Below are positions 1 to 46,282 of a DNA stretch of 64,000 nt, in pieces. The position numbers were made by a program, and so were the translations under genes. This stretch comes from an uncultured Hormoscilla sp. (GTDB taxonomy: Bacteria > Cyanobacteriota > Cyanobacteriia > Cyanobacteriales > Desertifilaceae). Every line of letters begins with the position of its first letter. Positions within the stretch are counted from its first letter, which is position 1. Location of the stretch: positions 6,752,001-6,816,000 of the forward strand of contig OZ001293.3 of NCBI GenBank assembly GCA_963921275.4, in the 5' to 3' direction. The notes below the pieces were generated by a model. The model was not told the DNA's origin. It saw only the letters and a program-made list of their open reading frames with translations, and did no database searches.

Positions 1-1017
1 CCTAACTCCGTCGGGATGCTGCCAGTCAGTTGGTTGTCGGACAGCAAGAGATTCTCCAAATTGGAAAGATTCCCTAACTCCGTCGGGATGCTGCCAGTCA
101 AGTTGGTTGGAGGACAGCCGGAGATTCTCCAAATTGGAAAGATTCCCTAACTCCGTCGGGATGCTGCCAGTCAGTTGGTTGGAGAACAGCCGGAGATCCT
201 CCAAATTGGAAAGATTCCCTAACTCCGTCGGGATGCTGCCAGTCAGTCGGTTGTTGTTCAGCCAGAGCGACTCCAAATTGGAAAGATTCCCTAACTCCGT
301 CGGGATGCTGCCAGTCAGTTGGTTGAAGCTTAGGATGAGCCTTATCACCCTGTCGCTAGTTACCGTCACTCCATGCCAACCATTAACAACAGAAGCTTCG
401 GGGGGAATTGCGCTGTTGAAATTCCAGTCCCGCCAGCCTGTATTGCTCCTCCAAGAAACCCCATTGGTGCTTTGATAGAGAGCCCTTAAGGCCTGATACT
501 CCTGCTGGGAGATCAATATGCCCCCATAGGCCATCTGAGCTTCTGCGGACAATGCTAAGGGAGTTTTCATCCCCGGAGTTCGCCACTCCAACTTCCAATT
601 TCCGCCCCGGGCTGCTGCCCCTGTCCGGGTAGTAGAGGCGGCGAGGGATGCCCCGGTTAGGGTCTGTAGCTTAGTCATCAACTCCTCTCCTGCATCTCCG
701 GCGGCGACGTTACAGCCGTAGAGTAGGAGTTGTTTTACCTTCCACTTCTGCAGGGTAGAGGCGTAATCTCCTAGAGTATCTAAACTCAGTTGGGAGTTTC
801 CCAGATACAGACAACCAGGGCTGCCGTGGGAAAGTAGGTGCAGGACTTCTGTTTCCTTATGCTGTTGGAGAAGTTCGCTGATCTGTTTGATGCCATCGGA
901 CCGAAGGTCTAAGAGGAAAGATTTGGCCCCAGGCCGGATGCCGTCTATAAGCTGCTGGTAGTTTTCTAGGGAGGCATCCACTACTACGATGGTGTTGGTA
1001 AAAGATTTATGCTTCAT
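1..1017 (-). pseudogene. 5' part of DUF4347 + plant-type LRR surface protein (paralogue of 15319-19290); runs off the window start; 1-bp insertion near 100
   Basis: ATG at 1017 (MKHKSFTNTIVVVDASLENYQ...); near-identical to 18210-19260; 72-bp LRR units at 1-325; one unit reads gtcaAgttgg instead of gtcagttgg (frameshift or sequencing error). Confidence 0.85.
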
Positions 1018-1049
1018 TTTTTGGTTGCTGAATTGATTTTTCTGTCGAG

Positions 1050-1140
1050 GTGCCGGTTCGCATTGCTGGGCTTCAAGACGTTTCAAAACCCGTTCGTCAG
1101 CATCATAAGCTTTGTCTGCGAGTAACGCATCAGCAGCATA
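1050..1140 (-). mobile_element. IS5-family transposase fragment (also copied at about 21430-21520)
   Basis: Translates ADALLADKAYDADERVLKRLEAQQCEP, a DDE 'ADKAYDAD' motif. Confidence 0.6.
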
Positions 1141-1782
1141 GACAAATAAGCGGTTATCCTTAGCTGTCCCCCCACATAACCCTCCCGACCTGGCAATAGG
1201 TCCCTGATTCTCTCCCACCGGTCATCTCTTAAAGCATAGCGACGCATTTCTCAAATTCTCCTGCTCTAACCTTTACCAACTCAATCATCTTGTTATATAT
1301 TTTTGGTGGGGATCCATATCGTTAATCTAACTGATGACACGCCCTAGATCTCGTAGAGGAAATATTGAGCACACTCCGTTCGCGCAGCGTGGCGCAGCCA
1401 TAAGCGTATTTAGTCTGGCTTAGGCTAACGCGCAGCGTGGCGCAGCCATAGAGATGGTTCCTACTATGTTCTGGGCAGACAGCGGTGACTCCTTATCTGA
1501 ACGGCTTGAGCGAATACTACTACCATCAGAGGATGTTTGTAAAGTAGCAAAAAGCACTCAATATGTAAAAAAGGCTTCCTGGGAAAAGAGCTGAAATATT
1601 AAAATCATCCGTTAGTCATTCAGAAAGCCATGACAAAGCGCATATACCACCGAAGGAACCCAACTACAATGGGAGTTGTTAGAATCTCTCTTACCACCGA
1701 TCACTATTATTCCCCAGGATTGGAGCTGGAGCCACACAGTCAGATAATGTTATAATGGATAGTTGTGTATTCTTTGGCAGCT

Positions 1783-12111: not shown

Positions 12112-12473
12112 AGTTCTTGTTCTGTTGCCACTATAGGTTCGAGCTTGATGTCACTAGAATTCATCTGCTTACTCAAAATGCGTTTGCTATCTATTCTATA
12201 CCTGTGTTCTGGCGCCAGATGAGTTTTGAACAGGTAAATTTATGACTTTAACACCACCGACAGCAGACCCAAGATTGCTCTATTAATTAAACTAAAAAAG
12301 AGCAGTCGCCAGCGGGGCACAAAACAATGAGGATGAAAGTACACAAGCAGGAAAACTTGGTGTTGACAAACCAAAGTTCGGAAGTTCTAGTCGAGCGAGC
12401 CTGGCCAATAATAGCCGCCCTACCCATTCCTGTAAGTGACAGAAATCACATTTAGTCGGTGACGCTCCATACC

Positions 12474-12570
12474 CGAGCCGAAGTCGAGCCGAAGTCGAGC
12501 CGAAGTCGAGCCGAGGTCGAGCCGAGACCGAGCCATTAGCGAGCCATATACGAGCCGTAGTCGAGCGATA
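12474..12570. repeat. 11-bp tandem repeat CGAGCC-N5 (about 9 units; about 12 units in the copy at 23380-23510)
   Basis: cgagccgaagt x3, cgagccgaggt, cgagccgagac, cgagccattag, cgagccatata, cgagccgtagt, cgagcgataa. Confidence 0.9.
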
Positions 12571-12984
12571 ACCCCGCCTAATGGACTCCCTCCTTACCTG
12601 GAGCCTGCTCTCAGCCCATTCTCAACGCACTGGACCATATCCCCACCCTAGCCTCGCCATAATATATATACCCTCGCCAGGGAGCCCTGGGCGACAACCG
12701 GCACCCCATACCCCAATAAACAAAGCTTAAGTGTAGCAACCTTTTTAACAAATAGAAACCCCCATAAATGAACGCGATCGCCTGAATAAAAGCTCTCTTA
12801 TACTTAGAGTAATTTCCAATATAAATTCTGACAAAGCAAGCTGTACTAGCTGAAATATTTACCGGTTAAGAGAGCAAATATTGCTCTACTCTATCAACCA
12901 CTTTTAATCGCACCCATTCTCCCATTCTCTACTATCAGAGAAAGCAATGTTATCGCTTGGCTCCAATTGCCACCAGTAATGTTG

Positions 12985-13613: not shown

Positions 13614-14625
13614 ACCTAAGTTGCGACCTATTAAAAAAAATATGAATTACCCACTTAGACTTTACAGATATTTGGGATATTTCATAGCTTTTGATACAAA
13701 ATTATATTTTTTTTGTGCTAGACGGCGGGTTGGCTGTTTATAGGTTATAATGTACTAAAATAATAGTTAATTGCTGGGGGATGTAGATGATGGAAGATAT
13801 GATTACAACAATTTTTGTTCTTTGTGACGAGCTACTAAAAGCGTTAAATATAAAAGAAGATCCACAAGTAAAAATGAACAATGCCGAAGTGATGACAGTC
13901 GGATTAGTTGCTGCATATTTTTTCGGAGGACACCACGATCGCTCTTGTCAATTTATGGTCGAACACAAGTATATAAAAAATCTGTTAAGTAAAAGTAGGT
14001 TCAATCGTCGATTACACAATATTGAGGAACCAATTTGGATGTTTTTCTTCCAAGTTATAGCTCAAACATTTAAAGAGCTCAATCCGGGTCAAGAATATAT
14101 TCTTGATAGTTTCCCGGTGCCAGTATGTGATAATATTAGGATTGATAGATGCCAAATTTATAACAAGGAAGAATATCGAGGGTATATTGCCAGTAAAAAA
14201 CGTTATTTTTATGGATTAAGAGTTCATATGTTGGTAAACAAAAATGGAAAGCCAATAGAATTTTATCTAGATCCTGGTAGTTATAATGATGTTAAAGTTT
14301 TGCAATCTTTTGGCTTTGACTTACCATCAAATTCAATAGTTTATGGAGATAAAGCTTATAATGATTATCAATTAGAGGATTTACTAAAAGAGTCGTCAAG
14401 TATAATGTTAAAACCTTTGCGAAAAAAGAACTCAAAAAGAAAAGAATCTTCTTGTTTTGAATATATACAAAAAGTAACAAAAAAACAAGTTGAAACCTGT
14501 TTTAGTCGAATCACAAATTTGTTTTCCAAGTCAATTCATGCTGTTACATCTAAGGGATTAGAGTTGAAAATAATTCTCTTTATCATAGCTTTTTGTATCC
14601 AATTTTTATAGGTCGCAACTTGAGT
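13614..14625 (+). mobile_element. Complete IS982-family insertion sequence (1012 bp)
   Basis: 18-bp terminal inverted repeats ACCTAAGTTGCGACCTAT / ATAGGTCGCAACTTGAGT (16/18), 8-bp target duplication TAATATTA, AT-rich. Confidence 0.92.
13787..14611 (+). CDS. IS982-family DDE transposase
   Basis: SRFNRR, LDSFPVPVC, YFYGLRVH, YGDKAY, VET.FS motifs; uninterrupted 274 aa. Confidence 0.92.
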   Translation: MMEDMITTIFVLCDELLKALNIKEDPQVKMNNAEVMTVGLVAAYFFGGHHDRSCQFMVEHKYIKNLLSKSRFNRRLHNIEEPIWMFFFQVIAQTFKELNPGQEYILDSFPVPVCDNIRIDRCQIYNKEEYRGYIASKKRYFYGLRVHMLVNKNGKPIEFYLDPGSYNDVKVLQSFGFDLPSNSIVYGDKAYNDYQLEDLLKESSSIMLKPLRKKNSKRKESSCFEYIQKVTKKQVETCFSRITNLFSKSIHAVTSKGLELKIILFIIAFCIQFL

Positions 14626-15318: not shown

Positions 15319-18300
15319 CTATGATAGTACCATCATGTCCGACTCCAGAACAAAAATATTGGCCTCTGATCCTTCGTAGAGACGATCGCTTCCATGGTTT
15401 CCGTAGACGCGATCTCTTCCATGGTTTCCGTAGACGCGATCTCTTCCCTCCCTGCCGATCAGAGTGTCCTCCTCCTCCTTCTCAAAGAGTGATAAAGTTA
15501 GGGGTTGGGGGTTGAGAGTTAGGGATTGACGAGTATTGCTGAAGTTAAGGTCGGTAGGAGAGGAGTTGACATTGTTGACATTAATAGTAAAAGCCTCCGA
15601 GTAACTAAGCCCACCAGCATCAGTAGTCTGGACGCGGATGCTGTAACTGGACTGGGTCTCAAAGTCAGGGGAACTGTTAATTTGCAGTGAGTTCCCTTCT
15701 ATGGTGAAGGCGTCGTTATCATCGGCATCAGCGCCTCCGACTAACTGGTAGGTAAAGGTATCGGAAGAGTCAGGATCGGTAGTTGAGAAAGTCCCTACGA
15801 CTGCATTATCAGGGGAGTTAGAATCAATGCTGCTGCTGCTAATGACTAGGTCGGTAGGAGACTCGCCGACATCGTTGACATTAATAGTCAAGACCTCCTC
15901 AAAACTATTACTAGCAGAGTCAGTAGTCTGGACGCGGAGGCTGTAACTGGACTGAGTCTCAAAGTCCAAAGAACTGTTAGTTAGCAGTTGGTCCCCTACT
16001 ATAGTAAAGGCATTGTTGCCCGATCCAAGCATGTAGGTAAAGCTATCTCCCTCGTCGGGGTCAGTAGTAGACAAAGTCCCCACAACTGCACCCAATGGAG
16101 AGTTAGAATCAATGCTGCTGCTGCTAAGGACTAGGTCGGTAGGAGACTCGCCGACATCGTTGACGCTAATAGTCAAGGCTTCTGAGTAACTGTTCCCAGT
16201 AGAGTCAGTAGTCTGGACGCCGATGCTGTAACTCGATTTTCTCTCAAAGTCAGGGGAACTGTTAATTTGCAGTGAGTTCCCTTCTATGGTGAAGGCGTCG
16301 TTATCATCGGCACTAGCGCCTCCGACTAACTGGTAGGTAAAGGTATCGGAAGAGTCAGGATCGGTAGTTGAGAAAGTCCCTACGACTGCATTATCAGGGG
16401 AGTTAGAATCAATGCTGCTGCTGCTAATGACTAGGTCGGTAGGAGACTCGCCGACATCGTTGACATTAATAGTCAAGACCTCCTCAAAACTATTACTAGC
16501 AGAGTCAGTAGTCTGGACGCGGAGGCTGTAACTGGACTGAGTCTCAAAGTCCAAAGAACTGTTAGTTAGCAGTTGGTCCCCTACTATAGTAAAGGCATTG
16601 TTGCCCGATCCAAGCATGTAGGTAAAGCTATCTCCCTCGTCGGGGTCAGTAGTAGACAAAGTCCCCACAACTGCACCCAATGGAGAGTTAGAATCAATGC
16701 TGCTGCTGCTAAGGACTAGGTCGGTAGGAGACTCGCCGACATCGTTGACGCTAATAGTCAAGGCTTCTGAGTAACTGTTCCCAGTAGAGTCAGTAGTCTG
16801 GACGCCGATGCTGTAACTCGATTTTCTCTCAAAGTCAGGGGAACTGTTAATTTGCAGTGAGTTCCCTTCTATGGTGAAGGCGTCGTTATCATCGGCACTA
16901 GCGCCTCCGACTAACTGGTAGGTAAAGGTATCGGAAGAGTCAGGATCGGTAGTTGAGAAAGTCCCTACGACTGCATTATCAGGGGAGTTAGAATCAATGC
17001 TGCTGCTGCTAATGACTAGGTCGGTAGGAGACTCGCCGACATCGTTGACATTAATAGTCAAGACCTCCTCAAAACTATTACTAGCAGAGTCAGTAGTCTG
17101 GACGCGGAGGCTGTAACTGGACTGAGTCTCAAAGTCCAAAGAACTGTTAGTTAGCAGTTGGTCCCCTACTATAGTAAAGGCATTGTTGCCCGATCCAAGC
17201 ATGTAGGTAAAGCTATCTCCCTCGTCGGGGTCAGTAGTAGACAAAGTCCCCACAACTGCACCCAATGGAGAGTTAGAATCAATGCTGCTGCTGCTAAGGA
17301 CTAGGTCGGTAGGAGACTCGCCGACATCGTTGACGCTAATAGTCAAGGCTTCTGAGTAACTGTTCCCAGTAGAGTCAGTAGTCTGGACGCCGATGCTGTA
17401 ACTCGATTTTCTCTCAAAGTCAGGGGAACTGTTAATTTGCAGTGAGTTCCCTTCTATGGTGAAGGCGTCGTTATCATCGGCACTAGCGCCTCCGACTAAC
17501 TGGTAGGTAAAGGTATCGGAAGAGTCAGGATCAGTAGTTGAGAAAGTCCCTACGACTGCATTATCAGGGGAGTTAGAATCAATGCTGCTGCTGCTAAGGA
17601 CTAGGTCGGTAGGAGAGGAGTTGACATTGTTGACATTAATAGTAAAAGCCTCCGAGTAACTAAGCCCACCAGCATCAGTAGTCTGGACGCGGATGCTGTA
17701 ACTGGACTGAGTCTCAAAGTCCAAAGAACTGTTAGTTAGCAGTTGGTCCCCTACTATAGTAAAGGCATTGTTGCCGGAGACAAGCATGTAGGTAAAGCTA
17801 TCTCCCTCGTTGGGATCGGTAGTAGAGAAAGTCCCTACGACTGCACCCAATGGAGAGTTAGAATCAATGCTGCTGTTGCTGAGTTCTAGATCGGTAGGAG
17901 GGGAGTTCTCTATAACAATGTCAAAGGTATCTGTCCCTCGATTTCTCGCTCCGTCGATGGCGGCTACCGTCACGGTAAAGGTGTCTGCGGTAGTAGGGGT
18001 ACCGCTGATAACTCCCCGACTGTTGATCGTTACGCCCCCTGGTAAACCGGTAGCTGTGTAATTGTCGATGTTGTTATTGATGTCGCCGAAATTTGCGCTA
18101 ATGTCTATGTTGAGGTTATTACCTAGCAAGAGTTGGACGTCGGGAATCTCGGTTAAAACATAAGGGGGGTTTTCCAATCGCTTTAAGACCCTCAAATCTA
18201 GAACCTCTTGGGGGATGCTGCCAGTCAGTTGGTTGTCGGACAGCTGGAGAAACTCCAAATTGGAAAGATTCCCTAACTCCGTCGGGATGCTGCCAGTCAG

Positions 18301-19290
18301 TTGGTTGGAGTACAGCTGGAGACGAATCAAATTGGAAAGATTCCCTAACTCCGTCGGGATGCTGCCAGTCAGTTGGTTGGAGTACAGAAAGAGAAATCGC
18401 AAATTGGAAAGATTCCCTAACTCCGTCGGGATGCTGCCAGTCAGTTGGTTGGAGTACAGCTGGAGACGAATCAAATTGGAAAGATTCCCTAACTCCGTCG
18501 GGATGCTGCCAGTCAGTTGGTTGTCGGACAGCCAGAGATCCTCCAAATTGGAAAGATTCCCTAACTCCGTCGGGATGCTGCCAGTCAGTTGGTTGTCGGA
18601 CAGCAAGAGCAAAGTCACCCTGCCGTTAGCTACCGTCACCCCACGCCAACCATTAACAACAGAAGCATCGGGGGGAGTTGGGCTGTTGAAATTCCAGTCC
18701 CGCCAGCCTGTATTGTTCGTCCAAGAAGCCCCATTGGTGCTTTGATAGAGAGCCCTTAAGGCCTGATACTCCTGCTGGGAGATGGTCAATATGCCCCCAT
18801 AGGCCATCTGAGCTTCTGCGGACAATGCTAAGGGAGTTTTCATCCCCGGAGTTCGCCACTCCAACTTCCAATTTCCGCCCCGGGCTGCTGCCCCTGTCCG
18901 GGTAGTAGAGGCGGCGAGGGATGCCCCGGTCAGGGCCTGTAGCTTAGTCATCAACTCCTCTCCTGCATCTCCGGCGGCGACGTTACAGCCGTAGAGTAGG
19001 AGTTGTTTTACCTTCCACTTCTGCAGGGTAGAGGCGTAATCTCCTAGAGGATCTAAACTCAGTTGGGAGTTTCCCAGATACAGACAGCCAGGGCTGCCGT
19101 GGGAGAGTAGGTGCAGAACTTCTGTTTCTTTATGCTGTTGGAGAAGTTCGCCGATCTGTTTGATGCCATCGGACCGAAGGTCTAAGAGGAAAGATTTGGC
19201 CCCAGGCCGGATGCCGTCTATAAGCTGCTGGTAGTTTTCTAGGGAGGCATCCACTACTACCATAGTGTTGGCATTGGTATTATGTTTCAT
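15319..19290 (-). CDS. Large surface/secreted protein: DUF4347 + plant-type LRRs + Ig-like domain + 8 cadherin-like repeats + RTX-like C-terminus (C-terminal frameshift)
   Basis: LHLLSHGSPG..LYGCNVA..GGNW (DUF4347); [17 protein letters not shown] repeats; PTDL.LS..VGT.STTDPD..DFE..SY cadherin repeats; GRDRVYGNH nonapeptides. Confidence 0.9.
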   Translation of the reverse strand: MKHNTNANTMVVVDASLENYQQLIDGIRPGAKSFLLDLRSDGIKQIGELLQQHKETEVLHLLSHGSPGCLYLGNSQLSLDPLGDYASTLQKWKVKQLLLYGCNVAAGDAGEELMTKLQALTGASLAASTTRTGAAARGGNWKLEWRTPGMKTPLALSAEAQMAYGGILTISQQEYQALRALYQSTNGASWTNNTGWRDWNFNSPTPPDASVVNGWRGVTVANGRVTLLLLSDNQLTGSIPTELGNLSNLEDLWLSDNQLTGSIPTELGNLSNLIRLQLYSNQLTGSIPTELGNLSNLRFLFLYSNQLTGSIPTELGNLSNLIRLQLYSNQLTGSIPTELGNLSNLEFLQLSDNQLTGSIPQEVLDLRVLKRLENPPYVLTEIPDVQLLLGNNLNIDISANFGDINNNIDNYTATGLPGGVTINSRGVISGTPTTADTFTVTVAAIDGARNRGTDTFDIVIENSPPTDLELSNSSIDSNSPLGAVVGTFSTTDPNEGDSFTYMLVSGNNAFTIVGDQLLTNSSLDFETQSSYSIRVQTTDAGGLSYSEAFTINVNNVNSSPTDLVLSSSSIDSNSPDNAVVGTFSTTDPDSSDTFTYQLVGGASADDNDAFTIEGNSLQINSSPDFERKSSYSIGVQTTDSTGNSYSEALTISVNDVGESPTDLVLSSSSIDSNSPLGAVVGTLSTTDPDEGDSFTYMLGSGNNAFTIVGDQLLTNSSLDFETQSSYSLRVQTTDSASNSFEEVLTINVNDVGESPTDLVISSSSIDSNSPDNAVVGTFSTTDPDSSDTFTYQLVGGASADDNDAFTIEGNSLQINSSPDFERKSSYSIGVQTTDSTGNSYSEALTISVNDVGESPTDLVLSSSSIDSNSPLGAVVGTLSTTDPDEGDSFTYMLGSGNNAFTIVGDQLLTNSSLDFETQSSYSLRVQTTDSASNSFEEVLTINVNDVGESPTDLVISSSSIDSNSPDNAVVGTFSTTDPDSSDTFTYQLVGGASADDNDAFTIEGNSLQINSSPDFERKSSYSIGVQTTDSTGNSYSEALTISVNDVGESPTDLVLSSSSIDSNSPLGAVVGTLSTTDPDEGDSFTYMLGSGNNAFTIVGDQLLTNSSLDFETQSSYSLRVQTTDSASNSFEEVLTINVNDVGESPTDLVISSSSIDSNSPDNAVVGTFSTTDPDSSDTFTYQLVGGADADDNDAFTIEGNSLQINSSPDFETQSSYSIRVQTTDAGGLSYSEAFTINVNNVNSSPTDLNFSNTRQSLTLNPQPLTLSLFEKEEEDTLIGREGRDRVYGNHGRDRVYGNHGSDRLYEGSEANIFVLESDMMVLS
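15545..17880. repeat. Intragenic 585-bp tandem repeat (two cadherin domains per unit, about 4 near-identical units)
   Basis: The same landmark aaaactattactagcag lies at 15901, 16486 and 17071. Confidence 0.9.
18212..18610. repeat. 72-bp LRR-coding tandem repeat (52 nt constant + 20 nt variable)
   Basis: caaattggaaagattccctaactccgtcgggatgctgccagtcagttggttg repeated 5 times; same scaffold at 1-325. Confidence 0.95.
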
Positions 19291-19928: not shown

Positions 19929-21396
19929 TCAATTAACCACAGTGAAATCATCGACATTAATCAGGGTCTCATCAATCCCCGGAAGGGTGGCGATGGTTTT
20001 CGATTCAAAATTAATCCAGGTATCGAGGCCCTAAGAACCTCCTGCTAGCCTGATAAAGTCCGTGCCATCTTCAAAGTCTATGATAGTACCCATCATGTCC
20101 GACTCCAGAACAAAAATATTGGCCTCTGATCCTTCGTAGAGACGATCGCTTCCATGGTTTCCGTAGACGCGATCTCTTCCCTCCCCGCCGATCAGAGTGT
20201 CCTCCTCCTCCTTCTCAAAGAGTGATAAAGTTAGGGGTTGTGGGTTGAAAGTTAGGGGTTGACGAGTATTGCTGAAGTTAAGGTCAGTAGGAGACTCGGC
20301 AACATTGTTCACATTAATAATCAAAGCCTCCGAGTAACTGGCCCCAGTAACGTCAATAGTCTGAACGCGGACGCTGTAACTCGATCTCATCTCCAAAGCC
20401 GGAGAACTATTAATTAGCAATTGGTCCCCTACTATAGTGAAAGCAGCGTTATCATCCTCACCAAAACCAGAGATTAACCCGTAGGTAAAAGTATTTCCCC
20501 CGTCCGGATCGCTAGTTCCGAAAGTCCCCACGATCGCACCCACACGGGAATTAGAATTAATGCTGCCATTACTAAGAACTATATCAGTAGGAGACTCAGC
20601 AACATTGTTCACATTAATAATCAAAGCCTCCAAGTAACTGTTCCCAGTCGAGTCGGTAGTCTGAACGAATATCCTGTAAATCTCCTGAGTCTCAAAATCC
20701 GGAGAACTGTTAATTCGCAGTTGGTCCCCCACTATAGTGAAAGCAGCATTATCATCGTCACCCTCGCCCGAGACTAACTGGTAAGTAAAAGTATCTCCAT
20801 TATCGGGATCGCTAGTAGACAAAGTCCCCACAACTGCACCCTCAGGGGAATCTTCATTGATGCTGCTGCTGCTAAGGACTAGGTCGGTAGGAGACTCGCC
20901 GACATCGTTGACGTTAATAATCAAGACCTCCGAGTAACTGGCCCCAGTCGAGTCAGTAGTCTGGACGCGGAGGCTGTAACTCGACTGAGTCTCAAAGTCA
21001 GGAGAACTGTTAATTCGCAGTTGGTTCCCTACTATGGTGAAGGCATTGTTGCCCGAGACAAGCATGTAGGTAAAGCTATCTCCCTCGTCGGGGTCAGTAG
21101 TTCCGAAAGTCCCCACGACAGTATTGGCTGGGGAGTTTTCGTTGATATTGATGAGTATCTAAACTCAATTGGGAGTTTCCCAGATACAGACAGCCAGGGC
21201 TGCCGTGGGAAAGTAGGTGCAGGACTTCTGTTTCCTTATGCTGTTGGAGAAGTTCGCTGATCTGTTTGATGCCATCGGACCGAAGGTCTAAGAGGAAAGA
21301 TTTGGCCCCAGGCCGGATGCCGTCTATAAGCTGCTGGTAGTTTTCTAGGGAGGCATCCACTACTACGATGGTGTTGGTAAAAGATTTATGCTTCAT
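19929..21396 (-). pseudogene. Internally deleted third paralogue of the DUF4347-LRR-cadherin gene
   Basis: The DUF4347 start is joined out of frame at about 21153 to the last 3 cadherin repeats; premature TAG at 20031 precedes GLDTWINFESKTIATLPGI...DDFTVVN*. Confidence 0.85.
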
Positions 21397-21903
21397 TTTT
21401 TGGTTGCTGAATTGATTTTTCTGTCGAGGTGCCGGTTCGCATTGCTGGGCTTCAAGACGTTTCAAAACCCGTTCGTCAGCATCATAAGCTTTGTCTGCGA
21501 GTAACGCATCAGCAGCATAGACAAATAAGCGGTTATCCTTAGCTGTCCCCCCACATAACCCTCCCGACCTGGCAATAGATCCCTGATTCTCTCCCACCGG
21601 TCATCTCTTAAAGCATAGCGACGCATTTCTAAAATTCTCCTGCTCTAACCTTTACCCTCTTATATAACACCAATATATCCTGGTTGTCAACTCAATCATC
21701 TTGTTATATATTTTTGGTGGGGACCCATATCGTTAATCTAACTGATGACACGCCCTAGATCTCGTAGAGGAAATATTGAGCACACTCCGTTCGCGCAGCG
21801 TGGCGCAGCCATAAGCGTATTTAGTTTGGCTTAGGCTAACGCGCAGCGTGGCGCAGCCATAGAGATGGTTCCTACTATGTTCTGGGCAGACAGCGGTGAC
21901 TCC

Positions 21904-23082: not shown

Positions 23083-24204
23083 AATGCGTTTGCTATCTAT
23101 TCTATACCTGTGTTCTGGCGCCAGATGAGTTTTGAACAGGTAAATTTATGACTTTAACACCACCGACAGCAGACCCAAGATTGCTCTACCAATTAAACTA
23201 AAAAAGAGCAGTCGCCAGCGGGGCACAAAACAATGAGGATGAAAGTACACAAGCAGGAAAACTTGGTGTTGACAAACCAAAGTTCGGAAGTTCTAGTCCA
23301 GCGAGCCTGGCCCATAATAGCTGCCCTACCCATTCCTGTAAGTGACAGAAATCACATTTAGTCGGTGACGCTCCATACCCGAGCCGAGGTCGAGCCGAAG
23401 TCGAGCCGAAGTCGAGCCGAAGTCGAGCCGAGGTCGAGCCGAGACCGAGCCATTAGCGAGCCGAGACCGAGCCATTAGCGAGCCATATACGAGCCGTAGT
23501 CGAGCGATAACCCCGCCTAATGGACTCCCTCCTTACCTGGAGCCTGCTCTCAGCCCATTCTCAACGCACTGGACCATATCCCCACCCTAGCCTCGCCATA
23601 ATATATATACCCTCGCCAGGGAGCCCTGGGCGACAACTGGCACCCCATACCCCCAATAAACAAAGCTTAAGTGTAGCAACCTTTTTAACAAATAGAAACC
23701 CCCATAAATGAACGCGATCTCCTGAATAAAAGCTCTCTTATACTTAGAGTAATTTCCAATATAAATTCTGACAAAGCAAGCTGTACTAGCTGAAATATTT
23801 ACCGGTTAAGAGAGCAAATATTGCTCTACTCTATCAACCACTTTTAATCGCACCCATTCTCCCATTCTCTACTATCAGAGAAAGCAATGTTATCGCTCGG
23901 CTCCAATTGCCACCAGTAATGTTGTAAATTGGGTTTCGTGCTGCCATGCCGGAGATGTCCTGCCATGCCGGAGATGCACGGGTTGGGTTTCGTTCTCCAG
24001 ACCCAACCTACGAACGGATCCATCCCTATTTTGTGATTAAGCCCGCCCGGACTTAGTTCATGGCCGGAGATGCACGGGTTGGGTTTCGTTCTCCAGACCA
24101 AACCCACGAATGGGTGCATTGAAGAGAGGAAATTACAGGCTTGAGTTTAGCAACCTTGTTTGCAAATGGTATCATACTAAGGAACCTCACACCTGTCACA
24201 AACT

Positions 24205-43070: not shown

Positions 43071-44465
43071 CTACCGAATAATTTCCTGCCCCAACAGATA
43101 TTGAAGCCCCTCAATCGCTCGATAAGCAGAAACTTTGCCCTCGGTGCGAGCCAGAAATTCCGCTGCTACATCGCTCGCTTGTTTGCCACCGACGCATAAC
43201 TCGCACAGCGTCAGCAAGTCTCGAAGAGGTAAATACATCTTCAGTCGCGGCAAAAATTTCGCATTGTCAGGCGATCGCTCGAAATAGAGAATTTTCGACG
43301 GATCGAGGGAGATTTGAAATCGACGCCGCTGCCAAAACTCAGAATTCGCCCAGCGCTTTTCTAAAGTATAATACTGGCGTCGGTCTTCTAAATACAGTTC
43401 AAACTGACGCCGAGTTTGCGATTCGTACTCGACAAGGGCTTCTCCATCCCCGGTGAAATAGCTGGCGATCGCCTCTGCCGCCCGAATGCCCGAGCGCAAT
43501 GCCTTGTAAATACCTGCCGAAGAAAGCGGATCGAAAGTGCAAGCCGCATCCCCAACTGCCAGCCAACCATCCCCCGCCATCATATCTAAATACTGGGAAA
43601 AAGCTGGTTGAATCTGAAGCTCGGACTTCCGCCGAGGTTGTTTTGCTGCAGGCGGTGAAAAAATAGGAATAGCAGTGGCGCCTGCAACCAGTTCGAGAAC
43701 GTGACGGGTTTTCGCCAGATTTGCCTGCCAACTTTCCCAACGAGAGAATTGATGCTCTCGCCACCGTTCGCGATCGCTCATCAAAGTGACAATGGCGCGA
43801 TTGTCGGGCAAGCGAGCCGCATACCACCAACCCAACTCCGCCGCTTCTACCAAGGTGTAACAATCTTTCTTTGCTTTCTCCTCAAACTCAAACACTGCGG
43901 CAATTCCCAACAGGCTATCCATCCGCACGGGATTGGCGCCTTGTTTTGTCGCAAATACGCACCGACGCCCGGTGGCATCGACGACGAAAGAGGTTTTTAA
44001 CTGGAATCGCAAACCATTTCCATCCAGAAGCACTAAACTCCATTTACCGTTGTTAAGGCGATCGCACCCCACCAGCCGCACGCCTCGCCTTAAAATCGCG
44101 CCCCTTTCTGCCGCCGCCTCTGCCAGGGAGGCATCGAACCGAGCTCGGTTCAAATGCCAACCGTTTCCCTCCAGAGAGAAAAAGAAATCCTGATAACCTA
44201 ACTCCGAGCTACCCCATGCCGAGCGGTTGCCCACAGAGGGGAGATGTTCTCCTGGCTCCAGGATATCTAGGACTCCTAATTGCGTCAGAGGCGATCGGAT
44301 ATTCGGCGGAACCGTTTCGCCGATGCGAAAGCGATTCTGGCAAGACTTTTCCAAAATCGCTACTCGCTTGTCTCCTTGCTGTTGGAGGGCGATCGCAGTA
44401 GCAGCCCCAGCAGGGCCGCCACCGATAATCGCCACATCGATCTCCAATGGGAAGCAATTAGCCAT
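43071..44465 (-). CDS. lodB: LodB/GoxB-type FAD-dependent flavoprotein (CTQ maturation)
   Basis: GGGPAG, VDATGR, GWWY, AVGDAA..DPLSSAGI; overlaps the lodA-like stop. Confidence 0.85.
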   Translation of the reverse strand: MANCFPLEIDVAIIGGGPAGAATAIALQQQGDKRVAILEKSCQNRFRIGETVPPNIRSPLTQLGVLDILEPGEHLPSVGNRSAWGSSELGYQDFFFSLEGNGWHLNRARFDASLAEAAAERGAILRRGVRLVGCDRLNNGKWSLVLLDGNGLRFQLKTSFVVDATGRRCVFATKQGANPVRMDSLLGIAAVFEFEEKAKKDCYTLVEAAELGWWYAARLPDNRAIVTLMSDRERWREHQFSRWESWQANLAKTRHVLELVAGATAIPIFSPPAAKQPRRKSELQIQPAFSQYLDMMAGDGWLAVGDAACTFDPLSSAGIYKALRSGIRAAEAIASYFTGDGEALVEYESQTRRQFELYLEDRRQYYTLEKRWANSEFWQRRRFQISLDPSKILYFERSPDNAKFLPRLKMYLPLRDLLTLCELCVGGKQASDVAAEFLARTEGKVSAYRAIEGLQYLLGQEIIR

Positions 44466-46282
44466 GAGGCAATTCTGACGATCGGGCAACTTCAGCAAAA
44501 TATTGCTTTAGTCCGTCTTTCGGGCCGACATCAAAAACGAATCCCAGTTGATACCATTTTTCCACCATCTCTATATCCTCAGGAAATATCATGTAATCGG
44601 GGCGGTTTTGATCGTAATCCGTTCCCACCCAAGGTACTTGCCGGCCTTTAATCATTTCATCAGTCCTGGCAGGATCTTCCTCCAAATACACGAATAACGG
44701 GCGTTGAGCCGGCCACCACCAAACAATTCGGTCGAGGAGTTGAGCAGAACATTCATTGAAGTCCGCTTGCCAAGGTAAAGCCATAAACTTGGTAACATCC
44801 CCTGGTTCCAGACCCGCGTCCAAGTCCATCCCTAAACTAAGTTCATTTGAAGTCATTGACCTGTGTTTGAGACGGAAAGGTTCCGAGTATATCTTGGGAT
44901 TGCGGCAAATCCAGGTCATTTCAATCCCCGGCGAAAAAGCTCCTCCCACGCAGTTCTCCAGCGATGCAATCGTTAGTTTCTCTGCTGCATCTGGCTCGTT
45001 ATTACTAGAACCATTACTAAATTTGCCCTCTGCCCATTGCTGTAGCAAGAAATACTGAGTATCGGTTAAAGTCAGATATTTAGACGACTTCTGGCTCGAA
45101 CCTGTAGCATCGTCCCCCGCCAAATAGGGCATCATCGGGTAGCCGGTGGTTTTGGACTTCAAAGTGTTTTTCTGATTGGGCGGTCGAATCTGGCTGAAAA
45201 AGTATTGCCGCAAACCGTTGTATTTTGCTTCGGGGTTCCCTAGTAAATTGTAGTCAAAGGTATGGGGTTTAGGCGGCATAGCAGTCACCCAGGGAAACAT
45301 GGAAGCCCGTTCTAGTATCGGTTTAATTTCCTGAGCGAAGTTGGGATGGTAATTATATTGCCAAAAACCATCCTTGTAAATATCTTTCCGATATTTCATG
45401 TTGCGAACTGCGACATCCAGCATCGTGTCGTAAAGCGTCACCAGATTCAGAATCTGGGGAGCATAGGCCGGTGGAGCCACCAATACCCAAGCCGGAGAAT
45501 TTACTTTGACGGAAGATCCGGCGTCATTTAGAAACACTTCTGCTGAAACCGTGCCGTCGGAGGTGTCATCCCACCAACCGTCACTATTTGCATAATCCTG
45601 CATCTCGGGCGGGTCGTTTTTGGAACCGGAGCGACCAAATCCACCAGCAAAAATCAGGTGTCCTTTTACATCCAGGTACATTTCTCCAAGCCGGTCAATG
45701 GTCTTATTATTAATGCTAATGTCGGGAACTTGAGGATATAGCTGTGTCTGCTGCGGCCAGGTTCCTCCGCAATGGCGATCGAAAAGGACCAGTTTTTGCA
45801 CAACCGTCATTTGTGTCTATAGTCTTGCTGCCTGGATCGATGATTAGTCTATGCCTTTCTTCATCACCCTTTACGTCGCTGTTTCGTAAAGGATGGTTGG
45901 GGGCGTATCCATCTTCTCCGTTTTTGGTCTGGAACTGATACCAGCTTGCCTTTTTATTGGCAATCCAAACTGTCCACTTAATCCTAGTAACAGCTTTTCC
46001 ATTGATCTGTGAGTTCAGTTCGACTTCTATGGGATTTGTATCATTTTCGCTTTTGTAGTGGTAAATCCGAAACCGCACGGCTTGTCGGCGCATTTTGCCG
46101 TTGCTATCTCGGAAGTCATTGCGACTGAATTGGCCTGCTTCCTGGATGGGAAGTTTTACTGTTCCATTTTCGGTGGTTAAGGGAGTGGGAAGACCTCCTG
46201 CGGTTTCTGGAGCTAGATAAAACTCCTCACTGTTGCCTACTCGGGCAACGCCGATAGCCGGGAAAATTTTATAAATTCCCAT
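44458..46282 (-). pseudogene. lodA: LodA/GoxA-family CTQ-dependent amino-acid oxidase with one frameshift (about 45780-45810)
   Basis: KIFPAIGVARVGNS, ANKKASWY, WWDDTSDG, CVGGAFSPGIE, PWQADFNEC (Asp/Cys), WWWPAQRP (Trp). Confidence 0.88.

What the first reader, a model, noticed from the sequence alone, without database searches (positions are those of the whole stretch)
18212..18610. LRR arrays with a frozen DNA scaffold and hypervariable ligand-face codons (variable-receptor-like)
Seen: across 9 full units in two paralogues (1-325 and 18212-18610), 52 of 72 nt are essentially identical, including synonymous sites (apart from one substitution and one 1-bp insertion). The five x positions of xxLxLxxN vary freely: EDLWLSD, IRLQLYS twice, RFLFLYS, EFLQLSD, ENLLLSD, ENLRLSS, EDLRLFS, ESLWLNN. 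Changes fall mostly in codon positions 1-2, and the last two variable codons always end in C. Known: these positions form the concave binding surface of LRRs, and the LTGSIP consensus is the plant-specific LRR class. Inference: a family of stalked (cadherin) surface receptors diversified by cassette shuffling or gene conversion under positive selection, or by targeted mutagenesis; possibly involved in host interaction.
Basis: partly seen in the sequence, partly recalled or inferred. Interest (0 to 1): 0.7.

Follow-up and report, generated by a model that had tools for sequence, protein, structure and literature searches.

The report
Shuffled hypervariable LRR binders in cyanobacterium
A cyanobacterium carries about 250 almost identical leucine-rich-repeat units in 25 adhesin-like gene copies that differ mainly at five codons on the predicted binding face, likely through ordinary recombination between copies plus selection for new residues; fungal immune-type receptors show the same pattern, but here it is in likely secreted bacterial proteins.

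Summary
The genome holds 250 units of this 72-nt plant-type LRR at 25 loci, plus two smaller pools with their own scaffolds. The genes are DUF4347–cap–LRR–Ig–cadherin–RTX proteins, likely secreted adhesins; four long ORFs checked have no transmembrane segment. The scaffold is not specially frozen: its synonymous divergence (0.10) matches other domains of the same paralogues (0.04–0.13). The five binding-face codons differ at 81% of amino-acid comparisons, hold no stop codon, fit omega about 16–19 in all three pools, and are reassorted within and between loci. A diversity-generating retroelement (DGR) is not supported: no DGR-type RT, no Avd, no adenine-rich template, and synonymous adenines are unchanged. 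Best reading: concerted evolution by recombination plus diversifying selection, like fungal 'high internal conservation' repeats, in a bacterial LRR family with thousands of milder relatives. Only 2–3 of 25 copies are intact as assembled. Variation within the population, expression and ligands could not be tested. The scan reported the same family from three other windows of this genome. Side result: DUF4347 has an invariant His-Gly/Gly-Cys pair and a weakly caspase-like predicted fold.

The parts
15319..19290 (-). Gene P0001, 1,323 aa: DUF4347, N-cap, 6 LRR units, C-cap, Ig (He_PIG), 8 cadherin-like repeats, RTX-type tail cut short by a frameshift near 15,322
18787..19263 (-). DUF4347 domain with invariant His64-Gly65 and Gly101-Cys102; predicted alpha/beta fold weakly like caspase and legumain
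18616..18783 (-). N-terminal cap of the LRR solenoid, 85-96% identical between paralogues
18212..18615 (-). LRR array; variable zones TLLLLSD, EDLWLSD, IRLQLYS, RFLFLYS, IRLQLYS, EFLQLSD on the 51-nt pool-A scaffold
17911..18162 (-). He_PIG Ig-like domain after the C-cap
15769..17900 (-). Cadherin-like repeat stalk, alternating 285/300-nt units
1..1017 (-). 5' part of a second paralogue (DUF4347, N-cap, first 5 of 11 LRR units); a 1-bp insertion near 100-101 breaks the frame as assembled
20031..21597 (-). Broken neighbouring paralogue: half a DUF4347, cadherins and an RTX-type tail, no LRR units

Best explanation
This is one of 25 dispersed copies of a gene family for likely secreted, adhesin-like proteins whose plant-type LRR units are near-identical in DNA and are likely kept so by ordinary homologous recombination, while selection likely favours amino-acid change at the five predicted binding-face positions. 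Shown: the copy number, the contrast between scaffold and binding face, unit duplication within arrays, identical variable zones and multi-unit blocks at distant loci, and reassortment of codons across the fixed leucines. Inferred: the 51-nt identical scaffold is the recombination substrate (unequal crossing-over, gene conversion); new residues arise by point mutation and spread between units; the proteins leave by type I secretion and display the LRR head on a cadherin stalk to bind variable outside partners such as host, phage or other microbes. No dedicated mutator is needed.
For: 250 units at 25 loci. Amino-acid difference is 0.81 at x1-x5 against 0.09 in the scaffold; four-fold synonymous difference is 0.14 against 0.10, and 0.012 at the two Leu codons inside the variable zone. 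A codon-frequency model gives omega_x 18.5, 18.1 and 15.8 in pools A, B, C; it beats the neutral null by 49, 30, 14 lnL and a raised-mutation model with equal parameters by 9, 14, 6 lnL. No stops in 173 x 5 codons against about 35 if bases assorted freely; W, Y, F make up 30% of x2-x4. All 44 pairs of zones differing in one codon differ non-synonymously; x2-x4 and x3-x4 are near linkage equilibrium (60 and 58 of 100 four-gamete tests); 13 zones occur in more than one array; 2- and 3-unit blocks are shared between loci up to 1.5 Mb apart. P0001 and the paralogue at C1:2.456 Mb differ at 3 of 1,653 nt downstream yet share 1 zone (5 and 8 distinct). Zone distance does not track C-cap distance in 18 arrays (Mantel rho 0.01). 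Three scaffold pools 15-18 of 51 nt apart share no zones. HlyB is present above cut-off.
Against: Synonymous diversity at x codons is higher than in the scaffold on some measures: pairwise pS 0.35 against 0.09 (pN/pS only 1.65), same-residue codon differences 0.17 against 0.055. A spanning-tree count with ties given to synonymous steps found more synonymous than non-synonymous steps per site in pool A (10.5 against 5.2), though the reverse in pools B and C. The omega model is my own approximation, assumes free recombination, and was not identifiable when mutation rate and omega were both free. Only 2 of 25 loci pass both integrity tests, with a third intact apart from an in-frame deletion, so selection may be past rather than current.
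Confidence: 0.7

Rival explanations
1. Programmed cassette system: the many broken copies act as silent donors that are converted into a few expressed genes within a clone's lifetime, as in antigenic-variation loci or VLR assembly (recalled).
For: 22 of 25 loci are broken as assembled, yet their variable codons hold no stops. Two solo-unit loci carry ESLRLDG, identical to a unit in a distant array. Near-identical flanks carry different arrays.
Against: Six DUF4347 copies are broken by the same 142-copy group II intron that litters the genome, which fits general decay. No single expression site or donor cluster is evident.
Confidence: 0.12
2. Recent duplication and decay only: the family expanded recently, and x positions vary merely because LRR surface positions are tolerant, with no selection for novelty now.
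For: Scaffold homogeneity equals that of the flanking domains. Most copies are broken. Related bacterial LRR proteins all show variable x positions (median identity 0.15 against 0.71 for the scaffold in 121 proteins).
Against: Tolerance alone gives omega near 1, not 16-19. Third bases stay position-specific while the first two bases take 10-13 of 16 dinucleotides in pool A. Other surface positions of the unit vary far less.
Confidence: 0.12
3. Targeted mutagenesis by a diversity-generating retroelement or similar mutator.
For: The NNC/NNT/NNG codon pattern looks like AAC/AAT/AAG templates. One congener encodes an Avd.
Against: CAA>CAG 0 of 173 and TTA>TTG 0 of 173 next to the variable zone; no A-rich template among the matches. 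x1 ends in A in 36 of 36 pool-B and 13 of 13 pool-C units. No Avd in this genome. All 54 RT motif rows are group II type. Of 93 RVT_1 matches, 42 were inspected: 40 are group II-like and two outliers lack the recalled DGR motif.
Confidence: 0.03
4. Assembly or polishing artefact that homogenised the scaffold.
For: Four indels lie inside arrays whereas single-copy DNA matches three runs exactly, so repeats may be less well polished.
Against: Three public runs hold the scaffold in contigs far deeper than single-copy contigs (a rough check only, and one run may be the source). Named Hormoscilla records carry related pools.
Confidence: 0.03

Closest known systems
High-internal-conservation (HIC) repeats of fungal NLRs, e.g. 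Podospora HNWD/het-e WD40 (PMC13449251; passages and section 12 read)
   Same: Repeats 80-100% identical, a few hypervariable positions under diversifying selection, repeat gain, loss and shuffling, exchange between genes.
   Different: Here LRRs, no NACHT or NB-ARC domain, a likely secreted bacterial adhesin. The paper notes HIC occurs in bacteria, also without an ATPase (5.59% of such repeat proteins).
Ectocarpus ROCO/kinase LRR exons (PMC3341825; passages read)
   Same: Repeated LRR modules shuffled between loci, with positive selection on concave-face residues.
   Different: Eukaryotic, exon-based, intracellular GTPases and kinases; here intron-free units in a bacterium.
Plant LRR-receptor ectodomains (FLS2, GSO1, ERL1, MIK2, PGIP)
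   Same: Same 24-residue LRR class with an N-cap; best sequence and fold matches.
   Different: No transmembrane or kinase domain; plant repeats are far less alike (scaffold identity 0.59 in the one plant hit).
LRR 'eukaryote-like' proteins of sponge symbionts, noted for Hormoscilla (PMC6520454; passage read)
   Same: LRR proteins in the same genus, postulated to act in bacterium-sponge recognition.
   Different: The one passage only records their presence. DUF4347-LRR proteins also occur in Okeania and Leptolyngbya ohadii, so the architecture is not limited to this genus.
TAL effector repeats and lamprey variable lymphocyte receptors (recalled; VLRs also mentioned in the PMC3341825 passages)
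   Same: Constant scaffold with a few specificity residues, diversified by recombination between repeats.
   Different: No injection system or DNA target; no shown somatic assembly or dedicated enzyme.

Membership tests
HIC repeat proteins (HNWD-like) | Repeats 80-100% identical | tested here: met
   123 of 156 internal pool-A scaffolds within 2 nt of the medoid
HIC repeat proteins (HNWD-like) | Few hypervariable positions under diversifying selection | tested here: met
   omega_x 16-19 in three pools by an approximate model; pairwise pN/pS 1.65; spanning-tree count mixed
HIC repeat proteins (HNWD-like) | Exchange of repeats between genes | tested here: met
   13 zones in more than one array; shared 2- and 3-unit blocks; near-identical flanks with different arrays
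HIC repeat proteins (HNWD-like) | Repeat number polymorphic among strains | not testable with these tools
   only collapsed contigs available
NLR (NACHT/NB-ARC receptors) | STAND ATPase domain | tested here: not met
   none among P0001's Pfam hits
Diversity-generating retroelement | DGR-type reverse transcriptase | tested here: not met
   (42 of 93 hits inspected singly; DGR motif recalled)
Diversity-generating retroelement | Avd accessory gene | tested here: not met
   NF033474: 0 matches in G000
Diversity-generating retroelement | Adenine-rich template repeat and A-specific variation | tested here: not met
Plant-specific (PS) LRR class | 24-residue LxxLxLxxNxLxGxIPxxLGx consensus with N-cap and parallel beta-sheet | tested here: met
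   (class name recalled)
Type I-secreted RTX adhesins | C-terminal RTX repeats and tail, no transmembrane segment | tested here: inconclusive
   met in three long paralogues; P0001's tail is frameshifted as assembled
Type I-secreted RTX adhesins | HlyB-type exporter in the genome | tested here: met
   C1:775616, above cut-off
Type I-secreted RTX adhesins | Secretion and surface display shown | not testable with these tools
   needs proteomics or staining
Antigenic-variation cassette systems / VLR assembly | Silent donors, one expression site, switching within a clone | tested here: inconclusive
   many broken copies but no clear expression site; switching untestable
Clan CD (caspase-like) cysteine proteases, for DUF4347 | His-Gly and Cys dyad after adjacent strands | tested here: met
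   H64, G65, G101, C102 invariant in 55 of 55 aligned; motif in 109 of 120 hits
Clan CD (caspase-like) cysteine proteases, for DUF4347 | Caspase-hemoglobinase fold | tested here: inconclusive
   Foldseek E about 2e-4, TM 0.34 to caspase-3 and 0.37-0.41 to legumain; unrelated folds score alike

The most novel reading that the evidence does not exclude
A bacterial symbiont runs a VLR-like repertoire: broken copies serve as a library of about 200 binding-face cassettes that are converted at high rate into a few expressed, secreted LRR proteins, each led by a caspase-like DUF4347 domain that releases or activates the protein, so that one clone makes new binders against host or phage surfaces without a dedicated mutator.
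Probability: 0.13. Interest if true: 0.85.

Novelty: new variant of a known kind. Interest (0 to 1): 0.5.

Why it matters
It is an unusually clean bacterial case of the 'constant scaffold, selected binding face' design known from fungal immune-type receptors and algal LRRs, repeated in three separate pools in one genome. It turns the often-repeated but rarely tested idea that symbiont LRR proteins recognise the host into a concrete experiment: defined variable residues, a few intact genes and a natural library of binders. The mechanism itself is probably ordinary recombination plus selection.

Full report
Observation. The nine units, their translations, the single substitution and the 1-bp insertion are as described. 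They lie in two minus-strand paralogues. P0001 (15319-19290) reads DUF4347, cap, six LRRs, He_PIG, eight cadherin-like repeats and an RTX-type tail. The tail is frameshifted near its end as assembled.

Scale. The window lies in a 7.03-Mb cyanobacterial genome. Most related loci with named records are Hormoscilla, a sponge symbiont according to PMC6520454 (passages); the genus is inferred. A DNA search matched 3 of 4 congeners and 0 of 36 other relatives. The scaffold has 251 matches, one spurious, leaving 250 units at 25 loci; 95 of 251 are identical over 51 nt. The 173 internal in-register units carry 136 distinct variable zones. A protein-motif census found 332 units; the 205 internal ones fall into three pools (156, 36, 13) whose scaffolds differ at 15-18 of 51 nt and share no zone. 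Three named Hormoscilla loci hold related pools, 6.6-7.8 nt from this genome's scaffolds, again with no shared zone.

Is the scaffold frozen? Not specially. Four-fold synonymous difference is 0.096 in the scaffold, against 0.04-0.09 in DUF4347, 0.13 in the N-cap and 0.11 in the C-cap/Ig of the same paralogues. The whole family is young or homogenised. What stands out is the amino-acid difference at x1-x5: 0.81 against 0.09.

Selection or mutator? The Leu codons inside the variable zone are the least variable sites (0.012), which argues against regional hypermutation. A codon-frequency model that I wrote (GenomegaMap-like, recalled; assumes free recombination) gave omega 18.5, 18.1 and 15.8 in the three pools and beat a raised-mutation model by 9, 14 and 6 lnL. 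No stop occurs in 865 variable codons against about 35 under a crude null; Cys, Pro and Met are absent. Against this: pairwise pN/pS is only 1.65 because pS at these codons is also high, and a conservative spanning-tree count favoured synonymous steps in pool A. Long retention of selected codons and saturation would explain both, but that is inference. A DGR fails its tests: 93 RT matches, all 54 motif rows group II type, 40 of 42 inspected group II-like with two non-DGR outliers, no Avd, no A-rich template, and synonymous adenines beside the zone unchanged in 173 of 173 units.

Recombination. Of 200 distinct zones among the 251 matches, 39 recur and 13 occur in more than one array; 2- and 3-unit blocks are shared between distant loci. 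Neighbouring codons x1-x2 are linked (z 9.5), while x2-x4 and x3-x4 are nearly free. P0001 and the paralogue at C1:2.456 Mb differ at 3 of 1,653 nt downstream but share one zone. In 18 selected arrays, zone distance is uncorrelated with C-cap distance (rho 0.01) and weakly with N-cap distance (0.15, p 0.12). So units and parts of units move faster than their genes.

Protein. The model of cap-LRR-Ig is confident (pLDDT 91.8); x2 and x3 lie in the parallel strands and x1, x4, x5 flank them. Best matches are plant receptor ectodomains. That this face binds ligands is established knowledge for LRRs (PMC3341825 passages), not tested here. Four long ORFs have no transmembrane segment, three end in an RTX-type tail, and HlyB is present: secretion is inferred. 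DUF4347 has invariant His-Gly and Gly-Cys (55 of 55) and a confident model with weak similarity to caspases and legumain; a self-processing protease is a lead only.

State of the family. Two of 25 loci run from N-terminus to RTX tail in one frame; a third does so with an in-frame deletion. Six DUF4347 copies carry the same antisense group II intron at one site. Other breaks are small indels in repeats and may partly be assembly errors. Variation within the population could not be read from the available contigs.

Comparison. The LRR module belongs to a very large family: 7,977 of 7,992 scored candidates matched. Among 121 proteins measured (P0001 plus the 120 best hits, three more of them from this genome), median scaffold identity is 0.71 and x identity 0.15; 23 reach 0.80 and 3 reach 0.90, two from this genome and one from Okeania. 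This genome is the extreme of a continuum. It works like the HIC repeats of fungal NLRs (PMC13449251) and Ectocarpus LRR shuffling but is not an NLR. My ten paper searches listed no description for secreted bacterial LRRs. Earlier scan notes reached a similar reading on other windows of this genome; they are not independent support.

Verdict. Real; a new variant of a known kind; recombination plus diversifying selection (0.7); interest 0.5.

Noticed in passing
G000:C1:2454750-2455622 (L059) and genome-wide: An approximately 870-nt group II intron (RF00029) with no ORF over 80 aa has 142 near-identical full-length copies; 61 have no mismatch. It sits antisense at one site in six DUF4347 paralogues, and its 5' end also appears inside pool-C LRR arrays.
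   Followed up: partly
G000 genome-wide: 93 RVT_1 matches, nearly all group II intron RTs; one split retron-like RT at C1:1227407 and one divergent RT at C1:4242457.
   Followed up: partly
window 18787-19263: DUF4347 looks like a clan-CD (caspase-like) cysteine protease: invariant His-Gly and Gly-Cys, weak fold matches; a PDB entry with this domain (9qpe) is the top fold match.
   Followed up: partly
G000:C1:2453829-2454344 and 3981014-3981529: Two small ORFs with a single LRR unit (ESLRLDG) between an unrelated N-terminal piece and an RTX-like stub, each 1-2 kb upstream of a full array.
   Followed up: partly
L024-L055 (named Hormoscilla record): About 20 dispersed copies, 88-99% identical over roughly 3.7-4 kb, of another LRR plus beta-propeller-like gene region in different gene neighbourhoods, many frameshifted.
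   Followed up: partly
L058 (G003:C502): A DGR Avd gene above cut-off in a congener, on a 2-kb contig; no link to the LRR arrays examined.
   Followed up: no
window 43071-45810: Adjacent LodA-like (lysine epsilon-oxidase) and flavoprotein/halogenase-like genes.
   Followed up: no
window 12473-12572 and 23373-23509: Short tandem repeats with an 11-nt unit CGAGCCGAAGT between genes.
   Followed up: no
window 1020-1250, 13787-14611 and 21400-21597: Transposase remnants directly upstream of two DUF4347 paralogues (motif recalled, not scanned) and an IS982-family transposase.
   Followed up: partly
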